The position numbers and the translations under genes were made by a program. Positions 19,357 through 59,347 of a DNA stretch of 64,000 nt are shown in pieces. The DNA is taken from positions 18,354-82,353 of IMG/VR virus record IMGVR_UViG_3300030202_002990. The stretch is one strand, 5' to 3'. Source of the stretch: a virus. Every line of letters begins with the position of its first letter. Within the stretch, counting starts at the first letter, position 1. Under the pieces are notes generated by a model. That model saw nothing but the letters and a program-made list of their open reading frames with translations. It was not told the DNA's origin and did no database searches.

Positions 19357-19749
19357 TTAGTTTCCTTTGACTTTTTCTACTTCGTCTGTTATTTCGTCTG
19401 TCTTACTTTGTAAATCTACTACAACATCATCAATACTTTTCAGTAATTGCTCTTTTTCATTATCCGATAATCCAAACTCCGCCTCTGCTCCACCCTTATT
19501 TTCGTTGGCTATTATTCTCTGAACAATACCAGCAAGTTTAACGAGTTGTTCATCATTTTTCACATTTATTTCTAAATATTCTTTAATCATTGGGATTAGT
19601 TGAACGGCCATATCCCCATCTTTGATGAATCCTGTAACTTCCTTTACCAATACCTCGAGCTGGTGTTTATTATGTTTGGAATTATTATATATATCTTCAA
19701 ATAGTGATGATAGTGATTTACCTTTAAACAGTTCATATTCAGTTGACAT
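19357..19749 (-). CDS. Hypothetical helical phage protein
   Basis: First ORF of the structural operon, with TATTTAT motif upstream. Confidence 0.55.
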   Translation of the reverse strand: MSTEYELFKGKSLSSLFEDIYNNSKHNKHQLEVLVKEVTGFIKDGDMAVQLIPMIKEYLEINVKNDEQLVKLAGIVQRIIANENKGGAEAEFGLSDNEKEQLLKSIDDVVVDLQSKTDEITDEVEKVKGN

Positions 19750-19954: not shown

Positions 19955-20176
19955 ATGAAGGAAATCATAACACTCGTCAAAGGTTGGGTAGATGATTTAG
20001 CTCATCTATTAATGTCCTTTGTTGCCATTGGTGCTATATCCGAAGTAATATTCGGTACTGGTGTCTTCGGCGTTAATGTTATTGGTAACCTAACACTAAT
20101 CATAAATAAATTCGGCGAATCCGGTTTCGCTGGGTTAGTCGCTTTATTGGTGTTAGTGGGTTTATTCCGTAAATAG
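19955..20176 (+). CDS. Small two-TM membrane protein
   Basis: SD GGAG, two hydrophobic segments, own TATTTAT motif and terminator. Confidence 0.75.
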   Translation: MKEIITLVKGWVDDLAHLLMSFVAIGAISEVIFGTGVFGVNVIGNLTLIINKFGESGFAGLVALLVLVGLFRK

Positions 20177-29185: not shown

Positions 29186-29239
29186 ATATAGAATTTACAA
29201 CTTTTTATAACCATTTACAAGTGTTTTCTTGCTGTTTTG

Positions 29240-29652
29240 TGGAGGTGTGGGGATTCGAACCCCAGTCCTGTTTATTATTAATATTAAGTCATTCACAGTT
29301 TAGTTAGGTTACTACCCTCTGAGAAGTTACCTACAAACCACCAACTATTTTCTTGGATAGCTCCGTATGTTCTTTTATACTCATAACATGAGGAGTTGAT
29401 GTCTAACTTATTTTATGACCGAGTGTTAGACAACTCAGTAACTTATGCGTAAGCGTAAGTTGGTTGGTCATTCTGAACAGGAGTGACAAAGTTGTCAAAT
29501 CCCATTTCAGCATTGGCTAAATGCCAATCAATGTCCAACCCTTCAAGCGATTTATCGCCATTTGAGTTTCGTTGGGTTTTATTTAAGAGTTTACCCAAAC
29601 TCTACTGCACTTAAATATCAACCAATACCAGTCGATTTCCAAGTTCACCCCC
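29240..29652 (-). ncRNA. ssrA: tmRNA
   Basis: 5' GGGGGTGAACTTGGAAATCGAC. 3' GACTGGGGTTCGAATCCCCACACCTCCA. Acceptor stem with G3.U70 and discriminator A, CCA not encoded. Internal tag frame ends YAYA-stop (29443..29559). Confidence 0.93.
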
Positions 29653-46270: not shown

Positions 46271-47434
46271 TTAAGACATATCCCCATTAGCGTTTTCAAT
46301 TTCTTCTTCGTTGAATAGGTCACTTGAACTACCATCATTCACATACTTCTGAACCAATTGTTTTACATAGGTTCTCTCGGATTCAACACCACCATCATTT
46401 GAGTATTGTGGGTAAACACAAACCTCGGCGGCTTCATCAAGACCAAACCCATCGTAGAGTAATCCAGCGATTTCTACAGAAGTACGAGTGGAAATACCAC
46501 TTGTGATTCTACCACTTTCACTATTAGACTCGACACGAGTAGAGGAAGCGATTTCTGAAACAGACTTCAACATTTCTGAATCAACATGAGGAAACATATA
46601 ATCAAGTAAACCATGTTCTTCATCAGAGTTCAACACATCCATCTCAACAGTTATGAATCTATCCATAAGTGCTTTATCCATAACACGAGTAGAAGTATAC
46701 TCATTACCGATGTTAGCGGTCGCGACGAATGTAACACCTTCTGCGACAGGTACGGTTTCTTGAGTAGTTGACTCATCAAGTCTCAAGTATCTCTGTCCAC
46801 TATCCAAAACGGTCATCAGAATGTTCCAAGCGTCTGGATGAGCTCTTGATAATTCATCAAGAAGAATCACAGCGTTTGGAGTCTGAATCGCTTTCACGAA
46901 TAGTGCTTCTGAAAAGTAAGTACCTTTCTTTTTATCGAAATGAGTGTTACCAATCAAAGATGAACGCGGGTCTTGTGTCGCTCCTAAGTTAAAGTAGAAG
47001 TCAGGTCGGTCAAGTGAATTAACCAATGACTTAGCTGCCATTGTTTTACCACAACCGGCGGGACCCGTCATCAAAATATTCTTACCACGAACAGCGGAAC
47101 GAACCAAGTACTTCCACTTCAATTCTTTCATCACCAAACCTTTAGGTTTAAGACTATAAGAACTATGGATGAAGTTAAGAACTTCAGCGTGGTCTGAAGG
47201 AACATCAACAGATGAAACATCAGGAACAATCACTTGTTCAAATTCACTCATTGGAACCTTCCACCAGTAAACTCTATCGTTTTTACCACTTCTTTTCTCA
47301 AGTGCCATTCCAGCTTCATAAGCTGACTTCCTTGTTGAAGTGATAATTTCAGAGGTAAGTTTGTTACCATCCTTATCGAAGGCGTTGAACCTATTACCAC
47401 TCTTTTCTATTTTTACTACAATTTTATTATTCAT
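46271..47434 (-). CDS. MoxR/CbbQ-type AAA+ ATPase
   Basis: GPAGCGKT, ILLDELSR, ATANIG, MDKALMDRF. Confidence 0.9.
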   Translation of the reverse strand: MNNKIVVKIEKSGNRFNAFDKDGNKLTSEIITSTRKSAYEAGMALEKRSGKNDRVYWWKVPMSEFEQVIVPDVSSVDVPSDHAEVLNFIHSSYSLKPKGLVMKELKWKYLVRSAVRGKNILMTGPAGCGKTMAAKSLVNSLDRPDFYFNLGATQDPRSSLIGNTHFDKKKGTYFSEALFVKAIQTPNAVILLDELSRAHPDAWNILMTVLDSGQRYLRLDESTTQETVPVAEGVTFVATANIGNEYTSTRVMDKALMDRFITVEMDVLNSDEEHGLLDYMFPHVDSEMLKSVSEIASSTRVESNSESGRITSGISTRTSVEIAGLLYDGFGLDEAAEVCVYPQYSNDGGVESERTYVKQLVQKYVNDGSSSDLFNEEEIENANGDMS

Positions 47435-47492
47435 ATTTAAAACCCTTATTAGTTAGTTATTTTGTTAGTGATTCTCTCATCAATCATATAAG

Positions 47493-47522
47493 AATATACA
47501 CATAAAAACCTATATGAGTCAA
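47493..47522 (-). promoter_or_regulatory. Repeated early promoter (class A)
   Basis: TTGACT-18 nt-TATATT, near-identical to 50493..50522. Confidence 0.75.
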
Positions 47523-47669
47523 GTCTTTTTTTCATTTTTTTCAAGTTTTTTTTCTTCTCGTTTTACCATCAGGTGATTTATTAAACTCTTGATAGCTTCT
47601 TGTGTTTCACTATCCATGTTTTCAAATTTAAAATTTACCTTAGATGCTTTCTCTAACGCTTTCATTTTC

Positions 47670-48164
47670 TTATTCATTAACTAACACTCCATCTTTTATC
47701 TTTAAAAAACTATAACTCAATGTATGAGTAAAAAATAAATCACCAATTATTGTATTAACGAAAAATGGTAATGCTAATGTATAGCAACTTACCAATCCTG
47801 CTAATGTATTTGGATATCCTAAATACCAAACTCCAAAGTTTGTAAGTAAAAAGAATAATAACGAACTACCTAATATAGTTCCATTGGTAATCTTTTTAGA
47901 ATTAATACCAATATATGAAATCATCATAAATGACATATACACAAATGGCATTATAATATGAAATCCTAAAAACAAATCAGTTATAAACATACATAATAAT
48001 GGTAGGGCCATTGCCAAATTTTTATCTCTGATATTACATCCACCGAATAATGCTATTGCAGTTATCGGTGCTACATTTGGTGGATGTGGTAATAATCTTG
48101 TTATTACTGCCAATACCATCATTGACAATATAATTAAATTTCTTCTATTCATTAACTTCTCCAA
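47670..48164 (-). CDS. Solitary ECF S-component-like transporter (DUF6580/BtuM-like)
   Basis: RLLPHPPNVAPITAIALFGG...D..LGFH...SSLLFFLLTNFGVW...CYTLALPFFVNTIIGDL. Confidence 0.7.
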   Translation of the reverse strand: MEKLMNRRNLIILSMMVLAVITRLLPHPPNVAPITAIALFGGCNIRDKNLAMALPLLCMFITDLFLGFHIIMPFVYMSFMMISYIGINSKKITNGTILGSSLLFFLLTNFGVWYLGYPNTLAGLVSCYTLALPFFVNTIIGDLFFTHTLSYSFLKIKDGVLVNE

Positions 48165-48336
48165 AACCTTATTCTATAACTTGTTGTTGCGAATGCTTCC
48201 CAAGTACATTCTTTAAATTTACATATCCAATATTGTTCAAAATGTTTTCGAGTGGATGGAATCATTCTCCACCCACAAGGACACATTGGTGTATTTGATT
48301 TTCTATTGTGTAACCATTTTCTTATTTCAATAAACA

Positions 48337-50487
48337 TTACTTCTGTAAGAATTTTTTGTTCATAGTTTTTGAAACCGATAGAACAGAAGTTACATCAATA
48401 TACTCAGCGTCTTTACCATACATTCTGTTAAAGGCTTTTGAGTCATTTTCTCTACCCCAATTTGAATCACTTACGAAGTAAGACAATACTTTGATTCCAC
48501 GATTACGAATTTCTTTAACCATTTTCTTAGTGTGATTAAGTGCGACATCACCATGATAATCAACTTCGTTATTACCAAACATCGGCATCCCATCGGAAAA
48601 ATTTAGGAAGTAAGAATCTCTATCATTCGTAGTTGGTACAATTTCATTCATAATAGCTTCGTAACATAGACCTTCAGGAGTAGTTCCTGCGACATCAAGA
48701 TACTTGAACAAGTTTTTTACTTTGATAAAGGAATCTTTACGAGAATCATAGGCGATTAAGATAAGTGGTTTAGTTGTATCACCTCTACGAGTACGACCAT
48801 TACTACTTGTTTGAGTAGTACGAAAACTAACAACCACATCAACATTATTTACCATATCAATTGCTTTACATATAGCGACTACAGAAGTCATTGTGTTAAT
48901 CCACTTTGAACCACCCATTGAACCACTAGCGTCAACTGAGATATGAAGGAAAGCGTCTGAGTATTCTTCAATAAAACTATTAGAGAAAACCCTATCGTTA
49001 CCAAAACCTAACTCACTAATTAATCTCTTATCAATCTTTCCACTATCTAAACGAGTCCACTTTGTTTCACGAGACTCACCACGAACTTGTAACTTACGAC
49101 CTAAAACAGTACCAAGTCTAATACCTTTAGCGATGTAATCAGTATCATAACCACTTTCAACATTATCATCGTATCTATCACCTTTCCACTTTGATACCAT
49201 AGAAACAGTACCACTATCTACAAGTGATTTTGTAAACTCACGAACAACAATACACTTAGTACTTTGTTTCTTACCATCCCAAGTTGTAAGTCCATCACCA
49301 ACCTCAACATAACTCATACCACTTGACTCGATTGTTTGTAAGTCTTGTAGTTCTTTCTTGGTAACATTCTTCTTGGAAGTTTTACCACTCATGAACTCTT
49401 TTTGTTTCTTGATTGCGTTTTCAAGTTGTTTCTTCTGTGAATCAGAAAGTAAATTTTTATCTGTAGGAGTTTCAGTAACTTCTTCTTTAGGTTGAGATTT
49501 TGGTTGAGACTTGATTTCACCACTTTCAATTCCATCTAATAAGTCTTGGAAATCTTCATCAGAAATAGATTCATTAGAATCACCACTACCACCATTAGAA
49601 CTATCCATTCCACTACCACTATCTTGTGCTGGTTCATAAGACTCTTCACCATCTTCATTAATCTTAACTTCAGCGTCAGGTAGACTCTTAAAGATAGTAT
49701 GTAGTAATTCAGTAGCGACTTTAAAAGCGTCTTCGGTATCTTTAAGTCTTGAAATATTCTTAAGGTCAATAGTAGTCCAAATTTTACGAAGACCTTTAAG
49801 TGCTGAAAGATTAGTATTTTTGTTGGTGAGGTTAATGATACGAAACATATAAGAATCCATATTTTCATCAGTATACTCATCAGTACCAAGTGCTTTATCA
49901 ATTACTTTAGAATGAAAGTACTTGTCATACATTGAATGATAATAACCCTTGTAACCCGGCGAGGAAGTGAAGATATAGTTATCAATTCTTCTATCCTCTA
50001 CATAGTTAAGTAGGTTTTTTACATGACCTAATACATCTTGTCTTGAGTAACCTTTAGTTTCCCCAACATGGAATAACTCTTGTGGAGTATTATTTTCAAG
50101 GTCTTTCAAATAGTCAAAATCTGAAAGAACAATGTGTGAACCTTCATGAAGTGCTAATCCAACAGACGGGTCGAAAGACTTATCATCCATCTTAGCGGAG
50201 ATAACAACTTTTTTACCATCGGTGTAAGAATCACCACTTGATTTGAAAGTTACAGGAATATCTTTTTGAGTAACGATACGAACAAAGTTACCGATTGCTC
50301 TTCTGTAAGAACTAAGAGCGATTAAGTCTGTTTTTGGTTTGACATCCTCCTCATCAAAGATAGAAGTTTTCCTATCAAAATCAAATTCATTGTCCATCCA
50401 AAAAGACGAATAATTATTGGAGTTAGAAATTAAACTCCGTGAAGTATTGAAGTGTTTTAAGTTTTTCATATTTCCTCTGTTTCTCAT
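48337..50487 (-). CDS. vWA-domain protein with N-terminal HExxH metallopeptidase-like domain (MoxR partner)
   Basis: LALHEGSH...NYVEDRRI, MIDAS DASGSM, GTTPEG, FSDGMP. Confidence 0.85.
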   Translation of the reverse strand: MRNRGNMKNLKHFNTSRSLISNSNNYSSFWMDNEFDFDRKTSIFDEEDVKPKTDLIALSSYRRAIGNFVRIVTQKDIPVTFKSSGDSYTDGKKVVISAKMDDKSFDPSVGLALHEGSHIVLSDFDYLKDLENNTPQELFHVGETKGYSRQDVLGHVKNLLNYVEDRRIDNYIFTSSPGYKGYYHSMYDKYFHSKVIDKALGTDEYTDENMDSYMFRIINLTNKNTNLSALKGLRKIWTTIDLKNISRLKDTEDAFKVATELLHTIFKSLPDAEVKINEDGEESYEPAQDSGSGMDSSNGGSGDSNESISDEDFQDLLDGIESGEIKSQPKSQPKEEVTETPTDKNLLSDSQKKQLENAIKKQKEFMSGKTSKKNVTKKELQDLQTIESSGMSYVEVGDGLTTWDGKKQSTKCIVVREFTKSLVDSGTVSMVSKWKGDRYDDNVESGYDTDYIAKGIRLGTVLGRKLQVRGESRETKWTRLDSGKIDKRLISELGFGNDRVFSNSFIEEYSDAFLHISVDASGSMGGSKWINTMTSVVAICKAIDMVNNVDVVVSFRTTQTSSNGRTRRGDTTKPLILIAYDSRKDSFIKVKNLFKYLDVAGTTPEGLCYEAIMNEIVPTTNDRDSYFLNFSDGMPMFGNNEVDYHGDVALNHTKKMVKEIRNRGIKVLSYFVSDSNWGRENDSKAFNRMYGKDAEYIDVTSVLSVSKTMNKKFLQK

Positions 50488-50492
50488 ATAAG

Positions 50493-50522
50493 AATATACA
50501 CATAAAATACTATACGAGTCAA
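50493..50522 (-). promoter_or_regulatory. Repeated early promoter (class A)
   Basis: TTGACTCGTATAG...TGTGTATATT. Confidence 0.75.
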
Positions 50523-50610
50523 GGCTTATTTTAATTTTTATTGATTTATTTTTTATTTTTTTAATATATATTATTACTAATAAGTACCATTGGGGCAGAA
50601 ATAGTATATA

Positions 50611-50874
50611 CTAACGAAGTCGACCTTCGTGTATTGAATCATCTATAGTCTTAGTAACCTCAAATGTACTATTAGGAAACCTACCTACATTTAACTTACT
50701 GAATACTTTTAAGTTATCATTTACAAATACTTCAAATGCACCACCACTTGATTCTACTAAGTTAATTTCTAATACATCAAATGTACCTTCATAATGATTC
50801 TGTAATTCATCTCGTAAACTACGAGCTCTTGGTTCATAGTTTCATTGTGTACAATAATGAATATCTATTTTCAT
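50611..50874 (-). CDS. SelW/SelT/SelH (Rdx family) selenoprotein, UGA at codon 11 (not in ORF track)
   Basis: MKIDIHYCTQ-TGA-NYEPRARSL...ESSGGAFEVFVND...VFSKLNVGRFP, 87 aa. CxxU motif plus the Rdx GxFEV and FSK..GRFP motifs downstream of the UGA. ATG overlaps the upstream stop (ATGA). Confidence 0.88.
50816..50842 (-). promoter_or_regulatory. SECIS-like hairpin directly 3' of the Sec UGA
   Basis: AAACUAUGA-ACCAAGAGC-UCGUAGUUU, 9-bp stem with one U.G pair. Confidence 0.5.
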
Positions 50875-51498
50875 CTGTATTCTCCATACTTTGTATCTCT
50901 ACCATACCATTCAGAATATGTTACATCGAATGGTAATCTAAACATTAAATAATCCTTATTATCAATATTGAAAATAGTTCCTTGTTCATGTGGTTGTATC
51001 ATCTCGTGTGCCGCTCTTTCTTTCAATATCTCAATTGTTTCTTCTTTTTGTATTTCCAACATATGTCTAAAACTTTGAGGGTGTACTATTTCTATTTCCA
51101 TATGACAGAAATTATCACCAGATGGAACCAATCTATATGGTACAATCTCAGGTAATACTTTTACTATTTGACCATTGAGTGGCTGTAGTAAAACAAATAA
51201 TCCAATCAATATCCAAACTATAACTGACCACCATTTAGGTAGTATATTAAAATCTATTTTCTTTAACTTATCCATTAATTTAACTCGGGTGTTATTTCAT
51301 AATTATCTAAAACTCTAAAGGTTAGGATTGTCTTTTCATCTTCCCATACCTCGTAACTCTCTAACAAACAATTATCAGTTGTCATCTTTTGAATGACCTT
51401 TTCTTGTTGTTCTTCTTTGTGACATACAATATAAATTAGGTCTCCTGCGGTCTTTACCATAACTTGGTTATCCCATTTATTATATACTACATCATCTC

Positions 51499-52056
51499 TC
51501 ATTGGTTGAAAATCTTTTTTCCAATCTTAGAATTTTCTATCTGAGTTAATAAATTTCTAATATCTCGTAAGTCATTTTCTATTTGGTCGAATTGTTTAAC
51601 GATTCTTAAATCTATCTGTTCGAGTTCTTTATTCAACACCGATTCCAAATCTGTTCTAATTCTACTATCAACTTCTTTAATATGATTATTAACAAGTTTA
51701 ATTGTTTCTTTCATATCTAAATCATTATTAAGTGTGATATCCCATTGACTTTCAAGAAGTTTTAATGTCTTCTCTATACGAGTAAGTACGACATTTATTT
51801 CCTCACCATTGTCTATTATCTTTCCAAGTCTATGCATATTATCCACAATCTTATTTAACTCGGCAACATAGAATTGTACCGTTTTAGGATTTGATAATGT
51901 TTCATAAACTTTCAATCGTTTACTTAATTTTTTGTCCATATCGTCTAACTCTATTTGTCGTTTCATATAGACTTCATTATTTTTAATAGTGTATATACTT
52001 TCGACTATTGTTAAAGCCATCCATATTATTACGATAATTTGAAATGTTTTACTCAT
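51499..52056 (-). CDS. Membrane-anchored coiled-coil protein
   Basis: N-terminal TM and long heptad pattern. Confidence 0.5.
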   Translation of the reverse strand: MSKTFQIIVIIWMALTIVESIYTIKNNEVYMKRQIELDDMDKKLSKRLKVYETLSNPKTVQFYVAELNKIVDNMHRLGKIIDNGEEINVVLTRIEKTLKLLESQWDITLNNDLDMKETIKLVNNHIKEVDSRIRTDLESVLNKELEQIDLRIVKQFDQIENDLRDIRNLLTQIENSKIGKKIFNQ

Positions 52057-52599
52057 TATTTTTCTCCTTACTGAGGCTCTATCTCTTCACCATACATAGT
52101 GTATCGAGGTTTTGGTGGTGGTGGTGCATCTGGCTCTTCTATACTATGTACAGCAAATATTTCACCTTTAAATGCACTTAAATGGAATTCTGTATCTTTA
52201 CCATTTGATTTTTGAAACGAATATTCTAATCCATCTGTTAGACTTTCAAATACAGCTGACTCTCCATTTGCATCTGTCCATTGGTCTCCTGGTGGAACTC
52301 GTTTTAACACTAATGTCTTTACTTCTTTTGTAACCATTAAATAACATCTCCTTCTTTCATAGACTTAATTAAATCTAAAGTTATTTTATTGTACTCAGGA
52401 TACTTGGCCAAGGTCTTTAGTAAATTTCCCAAGTACTCAGCTGGTACATGGTCTAACTCCTCATTGAGCATCATTTCTGTAGCCTTAAAAAAGGATTCTA
52501 CTGCAACCTTAACCTCTTCAGGAAAATGAGGTTGTACTTTGTAGTCACCTTTGGATACTCTATCCATAACTTTTTTTTCTTTATCATTCATACATATAA

Positions 52600-52992
52600 C
52601 TATCTAAGTTTAATGTAAATCTTATCTGAACCACCTTCATATGATGCAGTAATGGCAACAGTTTTTCCTTTCATCTCAGGTAAAGGCCCGAACATTGTAT
52701 TGACTTCACCATTTGGTTTTGAATATGTATATGGATTGACAACTTTGAACTCATCTTGTGCAAATCCATTACTCCACCAATACTTCCTATCGGTTTTCCA
52801 AACAACTCTATGATAACCCTTATCCTCAACTACACCAGTTAATCTTACGAGTGTTTGTCGTGAATCATTGAGTTTCAATACATAGGTATTCCTACCTAAC
52901 TTTTTTAACCCATACGAATCAACAGGTTTTATTTTTATCTGTCCATTTAATGTTGCTACTAATAGTAGAAACGAGTATAACCATTTTTTCAT
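52600..52992 (-). CDS. Secreted protein (paralog of 38001..38561)
   Basis: WKTDRKYWW and NPYTYSKPNGEVNTMFGP. Confidence 0.6.
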   Translation of the reverse strand: MKKWLYSFLLLVATLNGQIKIKPVDSYGLKKLGRNTYVLKLNDSRQTLVRLTGVVEDKGYHRVVWKTDRKYWWSNGFAQDEFKVVNPYTYSKPNGEVNTMFGPLPEMKGKTVAITASYEGGSDKIYIKLR

Positions 52993-53019
52993 TTTGTAAC
53001 CTCTTTTTAATTCAATTAG

Positions 53020-58524: not shown

Positions 58525-58536
58525 CTATTTTCCTTG

Positions 58537-58607
58537 AGTCGTGGGTGAGATTTGAACTCACATACACGGGTTTGCAATCCGCTACCTAACCATTCGGACA
58601 CCACGAC
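58537..58607 (-). tRNA. tRNA-Cys(GCA)
   Basis: GTCGTGG...GGATT-GCA-AACCCG...GTTCAAATC...CCACGAC-T. U73 discriminator, CCA not encoded. Confidence 0.9.
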
Positions 58608-59206: not shown

Positions 59207-59273
59207 AAGCTATTTTAGGCTGTTTATAAGGCTTCTGCTTGTTTATTAATATAGTTCTTTAATCAATCTTTTG

Positions 59274-59347
59274 TGGAGCTGACTGGACTTGAACCAGCGA
59301 CCTCTTCAGTGCAAGTGAAGCGTTCTCCCAAACTGAACTACAGCCCC
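59274..59347 (-). tRNA. tRNA-Ala(TGC)
   Basis: GGGGCTGTAGTTCAG...CTTCA-CTTGCAC-TGAAG...GGTTCAAGTCC...CAGCTCCA, with G3.U70. Confidence 0.95.

What the first reader, a model, noticed from the sequence alone, without database searches (positions are those of the whole stretch)
50611..50874. Hidden phage selenoprotein (SelW/Rdx, CxxU) with SECIS-like hairpin
Seen: an 87-codon frame missed by the ORF track, with TGA exactly at the second redox position of YCTQ-U. Rdx-family motifs continue after the UGA, the start is coupled to the upstream gene (ATGA), and a hairpin follows the UGA. TGA is a normal stop elsewhere in this window, so this is site-specific recoding. Selenoprotein genes in phages are rarely reported. 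It implies a host with SelA/B/C/D, since none are in this window.
Basis: partly seen in the sequence, partly recalled or inferred. Interest (0 to 1): 0.88.

Follow-up and report, generated by a model that had tools for sequence, protein, structure and literature searches.

The report
Selenoprotein gene in a marine phage
An uncultured marine phage carries a small SelW-type redox-protein gene whose internal UGA "stop" is almost certainly read as selenocysteine with the help of a conserved RNA hairpin, which I found reported for no virus of bacteria.

Summary
Positions 50874..50611 hold an 87-codon frame with one in-frame TGA (50844-50842) at the second redox position of a C-T-Q-U motif. With that codon read through, the protein matches Pfam Rdx (E 3.4e-19) and NCBIfam CXXU_selWTH above their cut-offs.

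The same codon is TGA in 166 of 166 homologous places examined (window plus 165 loci). About 46 of these are marine phage-type contigs; 34 of them share the window's neighbouring genes. Codons 12-86 are under purifying selection (median dN/dS 0.22).

A 6-bp hairpin with a GUU loop starts 16 nt after the UGA. It covaries across 137 distinct sequences and pairs in all 26 distinct phage sequences. It fits three of the four published bacterial SECIS criteria; its stability (-5.8 kcal/mol) misses the fourth.

TGA ends 14 of 83 other ORFs, including the gene 30 nt upstream, so the recoding is site-specific. No tRNA-Sec, selA, selB or selD lies in the five phage fragments (17-45% complete), so host machinery is implied. 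The host is unknown, and no expression or protein evidence was obtained.

Eight literature searches found no phage selenoprotein. This scan's own notes report SelW-like genes in at least 8 other phage genomes.

The parts
50611..50874 (-). SelW-like (Rdx family) selenoprotein gene: 87 codons plus TAG stop. It is the last gene of a run of translationally coupled minus-strand genes.
   Evidence: Translation with TGA=U. Pfam PF10262 E 3.4e-19. TIGR02174 above its cut-off. PDB Rdx proteins by profile search, 2fa8 E 1e-9. 32 distinct phage-clade coding sequences whose only stop is at codon 11.
50842..50844 (-). Sec codon UGA (codon 11), second position of the C8-T-Q-U11 redox motif.
   Evidence: TGA at the aligned codon in 166 of 166 places. 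It aligns with the second Cys of CxxC in 2fa8 and 2p0g. Among library representatives that cover the site, 52 of 103 have C and 46 have W at this site.
50811..50825 (-). Candidate bacterial-type SECIS hairpin: stem CUCGUA (50825-50820) / UACGAG (50816-50811), loop GUU (50819-50817). It can also be read as a 5-bp stem with loop AGUUU. It starts 16 nt after the UGA and lies inside codons 17-22.
   Evidence: Covariation over 137 distinct sequences: 93.6% of cells paired against 69.7% in shuffles (0 of 500 reach it), slid controls 37-51%, 5 of 6 pairs with changes on both sides. Phage clade alone: 156 of 156 cells paired, two pairs switched on both sides in 6 of 26 sequences. Consensus criteria come from PMC13188914. 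Energy is -5.8 kcal/mol.
50872..50874 (-). Start codon ATG. It overlaps the TGA stop (50873-50871) of the upstream gene as ATGA.
   Evidence: Sequence read directly; ORF 50871..51275 ends in TGA.
50882..50885 (-). Shine-Dalgarno-like GGAG, 7 nt before the ATG.
   Evidence: Sequence read directly; an inference from the motif only.
50871..51275 (-). Upstream coupled gene (134 aa, no family match). It ends with a TGA that acts as a true stop 30 nt before the Sec UGA.
   Evidence: No Pfam, NCBIfam or PHROG match. Homologues sit next to the Rdx gene in related contigs.
48337..50487 (-). Downstream neighbour: a 716-aa protein with a CobT-like vWA C-terminus. It is separated from the Rdx gene by a 123-nt AT-rich spacer with a promoter-like site (50522..50493).
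   Evidence: Pfam CobT_C E 5.7e-4, below its cut-off. phrog_1576. Syntenic in related contigs. Homologues in Microcystis phage Mel-JY01 and uncultured phage LR756508.1. Promoter-like site.
50816..50842 (-). Competing, non-conserved 9-bp hairpin (50842-50834 with 50824-50816). It is the minimum-energy fold of the naked RNA and uses the A of the UGA.
   Evidence: -7.3 kcal/mol against -5.8. Among the 24 distinct phage-clade segments folded, it appears only in the window-type sequence and in L046. It cannot form once a ribosome sits on the UGA (inference).

Best explanation
This is a working selenoprotein gene carried by a phage. The mRNA is translated from the ATG at 50874, which is coupled to the upstream gene. 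At codon 11 the UGA is not read as stop. The hairpin that begins 16 nt downstream (6-bp stem, GUU loop) recruits the host's SelB-GTP-Sec-tRNA(Sec) complex, and selenocysteine is inserted.

The product is an 87-residue SelW-like (Rdx family) protein with a CTQU motif. It would cycle between selenol/thiol and selenenylsulfide and act as a small thiol oxidoreductase during infection.

The phage supplies the gene and the SECIS. The host must supply tRNA-Sec, SelA, SelB and SelD. Without selenium or without SelB, only a 10-residue peptide is made.

Shown here: the family, the conserved TGA, selection on the downstream frame, the covarying hairpin, and TGA acting as stop elsewhere. Inferred: actual Sec insertion, SelB binding, the redox role, and a Sec-competent host.
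For: 1. Family. Pfam Rdx E 3.4e-19. TIGR02174 at 64.8 bits against a cut-off of 34.2. Profile hits to seven solved Rdx/SelW-type chains, with position 11 aligned to the second Cys of YCTQCNW in 2fa8.

2. Conserved TGA. The aligned codon is TGA in 166 of 166 places: the window plus 165 loci (L001 and L002 are the same contig). The loci came from scans whose seed patterns did not include that position.

3. Sec/Cys pairing. Of 111 library representatives, 103 cover the site. 52 have C and 46 have W at position 11 (44 of them with C at position 8). Where I hold the DNA, W is TGA called under code 4; for example P0003 corresponds to L011.

4. Translation past the TGA. 32 distinct phage-clade coding sequences have a stop only at codon 11. 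Median dN/dS for codons 12-86 is 0.22 over 488 pairs, and 0.085 for window against L001. The window's frame has no start codon after the TGA.

5. SECIS. The helix at columns 26-31/35-40 is paired in 93.6% of cells against 69.7% in shuffles and 37-51% when slid. 220 cells changed on both sides. Within the phage clade 156 of 156 cells pair and two pairs switch together. The loop reads A-G-U-U-U, which fits N1-G-[G|U]-N-N2. The UGA-to-loop distance is 21-22 nt, and the stem is 5-6 bp. These fit three of the four published criteria.

6. Site specificity. TGA ends 14 of 83 ORFs, including the gene that stops 30 nt upstream.

7. Control. 5 of 5 cellular genomes carrying TGA-type homologues have tRNA-Sec above Rfam's gathering score, and 4 of 5 have SelB above its cut-off.

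8. Phage residence. The record is an IMG/VR virus record. It has a baseplate wedge gene and relatives in Microcystis phage Mel-JY01 and Flavobacterium phage immuto. 34 loci share the window's neighbouring genes. The phage clade forms one split with SH-aLRT 98 (quick tree).
Against: - There is no direct evidence of Sec insertion or even of expression.
- The host is unknown. No tRNA-Sec, selA, selB or selD is in the five phage fragments, but these are only 17-45% complete.
- The conserved hairpin is weak. Its -5.8 kcal/mol misses the -7.5 limit of the published consensus. In the naked window RNA a non-conserved 9-bp hairpin is preferred, and the SECIS pairs have under 1% ensemble probability.
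- No Rfam family matches the region.
- The closest cultured relatives infect Microcystis and Flavobacterium. From recall, not tested here, the Sec trait is not common in those groups.
Confidence: 0.85

Rival explanations
1. The phage, or its late genes, reads TGA as tryptophan (code 4) or uses general UGA read-through or suppression. Position 11 would then be Trp or another standard residue, not Sec.
For: Public gene callers produced full-length 87-aa products with W at position 11. This holds for 24 of the 35 proteins I fetched out of 50 hits, and 46 of 103 representatives covering the site have W there. Stop-codon recoding is known in other phages (PMC9523058, search listing and abstract only).
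Against: TGA closes 14 of 83 ORFs at normal gene boundaries, including ATGA overlaps. No suppressor tRNA was found; the only tRNAs are Cys-GCA and Ala-UGC. The site is the catalytic second Cys of CxxC in solved relatives, never Trp. Cellular homologues with the same TGA sit in genomes that have tRNA-Sec and SelB. A covarying hairpin at a fixed distance is not needed for code 4.
Confidence: 0.05
2. The frame is a decaying pseudogene or a chance open frame, and the TGA is a real stop.
For: Ordinary ORF calling misses it. The naked-RNA fold of the region is not significantly stable, z -0.94.
Against: All 32 distinct phage-clade coding sequences keep the full frame, with the only stop at codon 11. 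dN/dS is 0.22, with dS up to about 1. The family match is far above its cut-off. The gene keeps its place between the same neighbours in 34 loci.
Confidence: 0.02
3. The TGA is a sequencing or assembly error for TGT or TGC.
For: None beyond the a priori possibility.
Against: TGA stands at the site in 166 of 166 places from many independent assemblies and studies. 15 marine runs hold half or more of the stretch's sampled words; four of them may be the source.
Confidence: 0.01
4. Sec is inserted, but by machinery that the phage itself carries in the unsequenced about 55% of its genome (its own tRNA-Sec and/or SelB). The host then need not be a selenium user.
For: The record is only 45% complete and its relatives 17-27%. 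The phage carries translation-related RNAs: two tRNAs and a tmRNA. A tRNA-SeC call has been published for Bacillus phages (PMC6145125, passage read).
Against: Nothing of the kind is in 82 kb plus four related fragments. A full pathway needs four genes. At least 594 related IMG/VR contigs exist, but the 80 kept are all fragments of 33 kb or less and were not searched for these genes.
Confidence: 0.07

Closest known systems
Bacterial SelW-like selenoproteins (Rdx family, Pfam PF10262; NCBIfam TIGR02174 CXXU_selWTH). They are reported as the most abundant selenoprotein family of marine metagenomes (PMC2398784, passages read: CxxU motif, 427 Sec forms against 56 Cys forms in GOS).
   Same: Same family by two curated models. 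Same CxxU motif near the N-terminus. Same in-ORF hairpin at the same distance, covarying with the cellular members. Same marine habitat.
   Different: It is carried by a phage and embedded in a conserved phage gene block. It forms its own long branch (SH-aLRT 98, length 0.57) and is at most 53% identical to any homologue among the 80 genome loci kept from the scan of species-representative genomes. Its hairpin is AU-rich and weaker. That paper does not mention phages or viruses (0 occurrences).
SelB-dependent in-ORF SECIS of bacterial selenoprotein genes. The prototype is E. coli fdhF (recalled). The consensus model is summarised in PMC13188914 (passages read).
   Same: A stem-loop directly downstream of the UGA, with a 3-5 nt loop, G in the first or second loop position followed by U, 21-22 nt from UGA to loop, and a 5-6 bp stem.
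   Different: The energy of -5.8 kcal/mol misses the model's limit of -7.5. SelB binding was not tested. No Rfam family matched.
Poxvirus selenoproteins: the glutathione peroxidase genes of molluscum contagiosum virus and fowlpox virus (PMC8310308, passages read).
   Same: A virus carries a host-derived selenoprotein gene, depends on host Sec machinery, and has a presumed redox role. In fowlpox the SECIS also lies in the coding region.
   Different: Those are eukaryotic viruses with eukaryotic SECIS elements and SBP2/eEFSec, and a different protein family (GPx). This one is a virus of bacteria with a bacterial-type SECIS.
Cys-type Rdx proteins with solved structures: 2fa8 (Atu0228), 2p0g ('Selenoprotein W-related protein'), 3dex, 2obk, 2oka, 2ojl.
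   Same: Alignable over residues 2-85. They share the YC-x-x-[C/U]-N-[WY] motif, the GG-x-FE strand and the G-x-FP motif.
   Different: They have Cys, not Sec, at the second redox position, and are only distantly related in sequence (profile E-values 1e-9 to 1.2e-5). Their functions are also unknown.

Membership tests
Rdx / SelW-SelT-SelH family (Pfam PF10262, NCBIfam TIGR02174) | Score above the curated cut-off of the family models | tested here: met
   PF10262 scores 69.3 bits against 22.6. TIGR02174 scores 64.8 bits against 34.2.
Rdx / SelW-SelT-SelH family (Pfam PF10262, NCBIfam TIGR02174) | CxxC or CxxU redox motif near the N-terminus, right after the first strand | tested here: met
   The motif is C8-T-Q-U11. 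It aligns with CTQC of 2fa8 and CRQC of 2p0g.
Rdx / SelW-SelT-SelH family (Pfam PF10262, NCBIfam TIGR02174) | Thioredoxin-like fold | not testable with these tools
Only sequence-profile matches to solved Rdx chains are available.
NCBIfam NF041051 SelTWH_Campy (equivalog) | Score above the equivalog cut-off (88 bits) | tested here: not met
   It scores 76.8 bits. It is the best-scoring model but falls below its cut-off, so the protein is not filed as this equivalog.
Bacterial SECIS (consensus model as given in PMC13188914) | Apical loop of 3-9 nt and upper stem of 4-16 bp | tested here: met
   A 6-bp stem with loop GUU, or a 5-bp stem with loop AGUUU.
Bacterial SECIS (consensus model as given in PMC13188914) | G in one of the first two loop positions, mostly N1-G-[G|U]-N-N2 with N1 and N2 able to pair | tested here: met
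   The loop reads A-G-U-U-U with A and U able to pair. G32 is invariant and U33 is kept in 25 of 26 phage sequences; L027 has G there.
Bacterial SECIS (consensus model as given in PMC13188914) | [quoted passage not shown] | tested here: met
   16 nt of spacer plus 5-6 nt of stem gives 21-22 nt.
Bacterial SECIS (consensus model as given in PMC13188914) | Minimum free energy of -7.5 kcal/mol or lower | tested here: not met
   The conserved hairpin alone scores -5.8 kcal/mol in the window and -6.5 in the CUCUCA variant. The -8.7 of the 60-nt segment belongs to a different, non-conserved fold.
Bacterial SECIS (consensus model as given in PMC13188914) | Binding by SelB and dependence of read-through on the hairpin | not testable with these tools
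   This needs a reporter assay or a binding assay. Covariation is indirect support only.
Selenoprotein gene (usual computational criteria; recalled) | Homologues with Cys at the position of the UGA (Sec/Cys pair) | tested here: met
   52 of 103 covering representatives have C at the site. The PDB relatives have CxxC.
Selenoprotein gene (usual computational criteria; recalled) | Conservation and purifying selection downstream of the UGA | tested here: met
   Median dN/dS is 0.22 over 488 pairs, with no other stop in 32 distinct coding sequences.
Selenoprotein gene (usual computational criteria; recalled) | Sec-decoding machinery (tRNA-Sec, SelA, SelB, SelD) available in the cell | not testable with these tools
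   The host is unknown. None is in the five phage fragments. It is present in cellular carriers of TGA-type homologues: tRNA-Sec in 5 of 5 and SelB in 4 of 5.
Tailed phage genome | Virion and lysis hallmark genes, phage-type gene packing, relatives among isolated phages | tested here: met
   Baseplate wedge PHROGs E 5.5e-17. 46% identity to Microcystis phage Mel-JY01 and 38.6% to Flavobacterium phage immuto over 98% of that protein. Nearly all long ORFs lie on one strand. It is an IMG/VR virus record with a CheckV estimate of 45%.

The most novel reading that the evidence does not exclude
Selenocysteine use is a fixed, selected trait of a whole lineage of large (about 180 kb by CheckV's estimate) marine phages. 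These would be among the first selenoproteins of a virus of bacteria. The gene was acquired once, has since evolved inside phages under dual protein and RNA constraint, and ties phage fitness to host selenium status and to hosts that decode Sec. It follows that part of the ocean's most abundant selenoprotein family (SelW-like) is viral rather than cellular, and that public protein databases hide these genes as truncated or 'Trp' forms.
Probability: 0.7. Interest if true: 0.75.

Novelty: new member of a known kind. Interest (0 to 1): 0.68.

Why it matters
The selenoprotein family and the SelB/SECIS mechanism are both well known. The carrier is not.

- A 2021 review of viral recoding lists only two poxvirus selenoproteins (PMC8310308).
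- A 2026 review of the prokaryotic selenoproteome never mentions phages or viruses (PMC13188914).
- The marine surveys that made SelW-like the most abundant ocean selenoprotein did not separate viral sequences (PMC2398784). One later study states that selenoprotein families have few or no viral sequences (PMC9402790).

A phage that keeps a Sec codon and its SECIS under selection shows three things. Phages can exploit the host's 21st-amino-acid machinery. Marine selenoproteome counts may include viral genes. Such genes could serve as a host-range marker, since the host must decode Sec.

There is also a practical annotation problem. Gene callers either truncate these genes or translate the UGA as Trp under code 4.

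The finding is directly testable by metaproteomics or a reporter assay. Its weight is tempered in two ways. The mechanism is ordinary once the gene is on a phage. And this scan's notes already record similar SelW-like genes in at least 8 other phage genomes.

Tried and rejected
Plus-strand reading. The coordinates read on the plus strand give only stops. The feature is on the minus strand.

Rfam. No SECIS or other family matches 50400-51000 at E up to 10; the only hit is a chance snoRNA match at 16 bits. The gathering run on the whole window found only the tmRNA and two tRNAs.

Minimum-energy hairpin. The 9-bp stem starting at the A of the UGA is not significant (z -0.94). Among the 24 distinct phage-clade segments folded, it recurs only in L046. 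I rejected it as the SECIS.

GenBank phages. There is no DNA match to 48000-53000 and no tblastn match of the protein in 50,697 records. No deposited phage has this gene at that sensitivity.

Second selenoprotein. A motif scan of all in-frame TGAs in the 82-kb record gave one other minus-strand candidate, near 20004. Read with TGA=U it is a low-complexity frame overlapping plus-strand membrane ORFs, so I rejected it. The scan required a redox-like motif and is not exhaustive.

Host identification.
- At least 594 IMG/VR relatives of the baseplate protein exist, but the 80 kept are all fragments of 33 kb or less.
- The phage tmRNA found no blast match in 400 scored genomes of the class of one gammaproteobacterial MAG. 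An empty answer without a positive control shows nothing, and group names are not shown for such handles.
- The host stays unknown.
- Earlier notes on pilins, a TonB domain and a sigma-54 promoter suggest a Gram-negative host. I did not test them.

Function from neighbours. The six upstream genes have no Pfam, NCBIfam or PHROG match among those I searched. Downstream lie a CobT-like vWA protein, DUF6580 and a MoxR/CobS-like AAA ATPase. None links to redox chemistry.

Tree. The careful search did not finish in 288 s. Only the quick IQ-TREE result is used. 76 columns cannot resolve the sister group; the grouping with a Pseudomonadota clade has support of only 69.

Literature. Eight searches were run. 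One search was wasted by a loose setting. None returned a paper that reports a selenoprotein encoded by a bacteriophage. Subscription journals are not covered.

RNA runs.
Full report
WHAT IS THERE

Read on the plus strand, 50611-50874 is full of stops. On the minus strand it is an 87-codon frame. The ATG is at 50874-50872, a single in-frame TGA is at codon 11 (50844-50842), and the TAG stop is at 50613-50611. The product reads MKIDIHYCTQ-U-NYEPRARSLRDEL...GGAFEVFVND...VFSKLNVGRFPNS...

The ATG overlaps the TGA stop of the upstream gene (50871..51275) as ATGA. A GGAG lies 7 nt before it. The ORF lister shows no minus-strand ORF of 30 aa or more in this interval. Ordinary gene calling therefore misses the gene, and there is no in-frame ATG/GTG/TTG after the TGA from which the conserved domain could be made separately.

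WHAT FAMILY IT IS

With C standing in for U, the protein matches Pfam Rdx (PF10262, 69.3 bits against a cut-off of 22.6, E 3.4e-19). It also matches NCBIfam TIGR02174 CXXU_selWTH (64.8 bits against 34.2). The best NCBIfam model, the Campylobacterota equivalog NF041051, stays below its cut-off (76.8 against 88).

A profile of the phage clade finds seven solved Rdx/SelW-type chains. These include 2fa8 (E 1e-9) and 2p0g, named 'Selenoprotein W-related protein'. In the printed alignments position 11 falls on the second Cys of YCTQCNW and YCRQCNW.

IS THE TGA REAL AND CONSERVED

The word-indexed protein search returned 50 relatives, of which I fetched 35. All 24 that include the N-terminus have W at position 11. 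The other 11 start after it or have a foreign N-terminus. None has Cys.

- 5 loci from IMG/VR (L001 and L002 are the same contig);
- the best 80 of 331 relatives from metagenome contigs;
- the best 80 of 148 from one genome per prokaryote species.

A local tblastn mapped query position 11 in each. The codon is TGA in 166 of 166 places (window plus 165 loci). The seed patterns (MKI[DEN]I[HE]YC and a mid-protein motif) did not include that position. The 'W' forms in the databases are therefore TGA called under code 4; for example P0003 corresponds to L011.

Sequencing error is excluded. The stretch is also held by 15 marine runs at half or more of its sampled words, four of which may be the source. 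Further away, Cys forms are common. Of 111 representatives at E up to 0.001 in the exhaustive library search, 103 cover the site. Of these, 52 have C-x-x-C, 44 have C-x-x-W, two more have W at position 11 without C at position 8, and five have other residues there. That is the classical Sec/Cys pairing.

IS IT TRANSLATED PAST THE TGA

Among loci L001-L046 plus the window there are 32 distinct coding sequences. Each has a stop only at codon 11. For codons 12-86, the median dN/dS over 488 pairs is 0.22, with median dS 0.93. Window against L001 gives dN 0.089 and dS 1.04.

THE HAIRPIN

The minimum-energy fold of the naked RNA is a 9-bp stem that starts at the A of the UGA (z -0.94, not significant). 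Among the 24 distinct phage-clade segments folded, it recurs only in L046.

What is conserved is a hairpin that starts 16 nt after the UGA. Its stem is CUCGUA (50825-50820) / UACGAG (50816-50811), and its loop is GUU. Most relatives have CUCUCA-GUU-UGAGAG instead. That is two compensatory pair switches, achieved by an Arg-to-Leu change on the 5' arm and synonymous Leu and Arg codons on the 3' arm.

An ungapped alignment of 137 distinct 57-nt segments gave the following for this helix:
- 93.6% of cells paired, against 69.7% in shuffles (0 of 500 reach it);
- 37-51% paired when the partner is slid by 1-3 columns;
- 220 cells changed on both sides;
- 5 of 6 pairs covarying.

In the 26 distinct phage sequences alone, 156 of 156 cells pair and two pairs switch together in 6 sequences.

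A 2026 review (PMC13188914, passages read) gives the bacterial SECIS consensus as four criteria: loop 3-9 nt and stem 4-16 bp; G in the first two loop positions (mostly N1-G-[G|U]-N-N2); 16-37 nt from UGA to loop; and MFE of -7.5 kcal/mol or lower. The phage element meets the first three, with loop A-G-U-U-U, a 5-6 bp stem and a 21-22 nt distance. It fails the fourth at -5.8 kcal/mol, or -6.5 in the other variant.

In the naked window RNA the competing hairpin dominates the ensemble. I infer that it cannot form when a ribosome covers the UGA and the roughly 12-15 nt after it, whereas the conserved hairpin stays free. That is reasoning, not a result. One subgroup of cellular sequences (GCGCGCCCGUGMGGCGCGGG) may use a hairpin shifted a few nucleotides towards the 5' end.

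SITE-SPECIFIC RECODING, NOT A CHANGED CODE

TGA ends 14 of 83 non-overlapping minus-strand ORFs of 80 aa or more, often in ATGA overlaps. One of these is the gene that stops 30 nt before the Sec UGA. The window's only tRNAs are Cys-GCA and Ala-UGC.

SEC MACHINERY

No tRNA-Sec (Rfam RF01852), selB, selD or selA is found in the 82-kb record or in four related IMG/VR records. All five are fragments, 17-45% complete by CheckV.

As a positive control I took five cellular genomes that carry TGA-type homologues. All five have tRNA-Sec above the gathering score, and 4 of 5 have SelB above its cut-off. The fifth, a Dehalococcoidales MAG, has SelB-like pieces next to its tRNA-Sec. The family's TGA forms therefore live in Sec-decoding cells. 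The phage must rely on such a host, or carry the genes in its unsequenced part.

IS IT A PHAGE, AND WHICH

The window is part of an IMG/VR virus record, and nearly all its long ORFs lie on one strand. PHROGs name a baseplate wedge protein, and the window also has a CobS/MoxR-like AAA ATPase and a CobT-like vWA protein.

The nearest deposited phages are:
- Microcystis phage Mel-JY01 (190 kb), with the baseplate protein 46% identical over 98%, the AAA protein 57% and the vWA protein 32%;
- the uncultured 484-kb phage LR756508.1;
- Flavobacterium phage vB_FspM_immuto, at 38.6%.

None of 50,697 GenBank phage records has an Rdx homologue by tblastn. At least 594 IMG/VR contigs encode relatives of the baseplate protein; the 80 kept are all 33 kb or less.

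The Rdx gene is resident in this lineage. 34 loci, all within L001-L037, share one or more of the window's flanking genes. L043, from the more distant 57% subclade, has an endolysin next to the gene. By contrast L047 (51% identical) sits among cellular genes: RecO, ferritin and ABC transporters.

In a quick maximum-likelihood tree, the 28 distinct phage-clade proteins form one split (SH-aLRT 98, branch length 0.57). The sister group is unresolved. The careful search did not finish, and 76 columns give little resolution. The best cellular identity is 53%. This fits a single old acquisition followed by evolution inside phages.

The host is unknown.

WHAT IT PROBABLY DOES

By family, it is a small thiol/selenol oxidoreductase with a CTQU centre. 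The cellular function of bacterial SelW-like proteins is itself unknown (recalled). The neighbours give no clue. The role in infection, whether redox protection or reduction of a specific target, is inference only.

KNOWN OR NEW

SelW-like CxxU proteins were reported as the most abundant marine selenoprotein family, with 427 Sec forms against 56 Cys forms in GOS (PMC2398784, passages). That paper never mentions phage or virus. A later study says that, apart from a few metalloproteins, the families examined have few or no viral sequences (PMC9402790, passages). A 2021 review of viral recoding lists only the two poxvirus glutathione peroxidases (PMC8310308, passages). A 2018 paper reports a tRNA-SeC call in Bacillus phages but no selenoprotein (PMC6145125, passage). 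The 2026 selenoproteome review has no occurrence of phage, virus or viral.

Eight searches gave no report of a phage-encoded selenoprotein. Subscription journals are not covered, and supplementary files were not consulted.

Within this scan the idea is not new. Its notes hold 225 findings with the words I searched, in at least 165 genomes. They include SelW-like genes in at least 8 other phage genomes, and all eight notes shown describe marine T4-like phages. These notes are unchecked by me and are not evidence. No earlier window shares sequence words with this stretch, so this is a further, different phage lineage.

VERDICT

The gene is a member of a known selenoprotein family that uses a known type of recoding signal. 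What is unusual is that a lineage of large marine phages carries it and keeps it under selection.

The open points are direct proof of Sec insertion, the host and its Sec machinery, the weak hairpin energy, and the function.

Noticed in passing
window 29237-29652 (-): Rfam finds a full-length one-piece tmRNA (RF00023, 85.3 bits against a gathering score of 47, E 1.1e-31) in the phage. ARAGORN did not report it. I did not examine the tag peptide.
   Followed up: partly
window 58536-58607 (-) and 59273-59347 (-): The window's only two tRNA genes are tRNA-Cys(GCA) and tRNA-Ala(UGC). A phage tRNA-Cys next to a gene whose UGA replaces a Cys codon is a curiosity. The anticodon is standard and I see no link.
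   Followed up: no
public protein databases (P0002-P0045, P0058-P0159): The Sec forms of this family are stored either truncated (starting after the UGA) or full-length with W at the Sec position, evidently called under code 4. This holds for 24 of the 35 proteins fetched, and 46 of 103 library representatives covering the site have W there. It is a systematic mis-annotation that hides selenoproteins.
   Followed up: partly
window 46271-50487 (-): A cluster of a MoxR/CobS-like AAA ATPase (46271-47434), DUF6580 (47670-48164, E 3.5e-45) and a CobT-like vWA protein (48337-50487) lies directly downstream of the selenoprotein gene. The AAA and vWA genes are also adjacent in uncultured phage LR756508.1.
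   Followed up: partly
G005 (genome of L086, Dehalococcoidales MAG), C1:1245564-1248599: tRNA-Sec (73 bits) lies next to two short SelB-like pieces (model positions 240-351 and 531-579) in place of a full-length SelB above the cut-off. This may be a split or very divergent SelB.
   Followed up: no
alignment A2, rows such as L068-L075 and L109-L161 (Xanthobacteraceae-type cellular homologues): In the GC-rich subgroup with GCGCGCCCGUGMGGCGCGGG, RNAfold prefers a hairpin shifted a few nucleotides towards the 5' end, with loop CGUGM. This again puts GU in the loop. The SECIS register may therefore differ between subfamilies.
   Followed up: no
L043:5686-6087 (+) and window 19357-19749 (-): The protein after the endolysin/HD-domain block in L043 looks by eye like the window's 130-aa protein at 19357-19749 (shared ...VKNDE[HQ]LVKLA... 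stretch). This suggests that the 57%-identity Rdx subclade sits in a related phage lineage with a different gene order. I ran no alignment.
   Followed up: no
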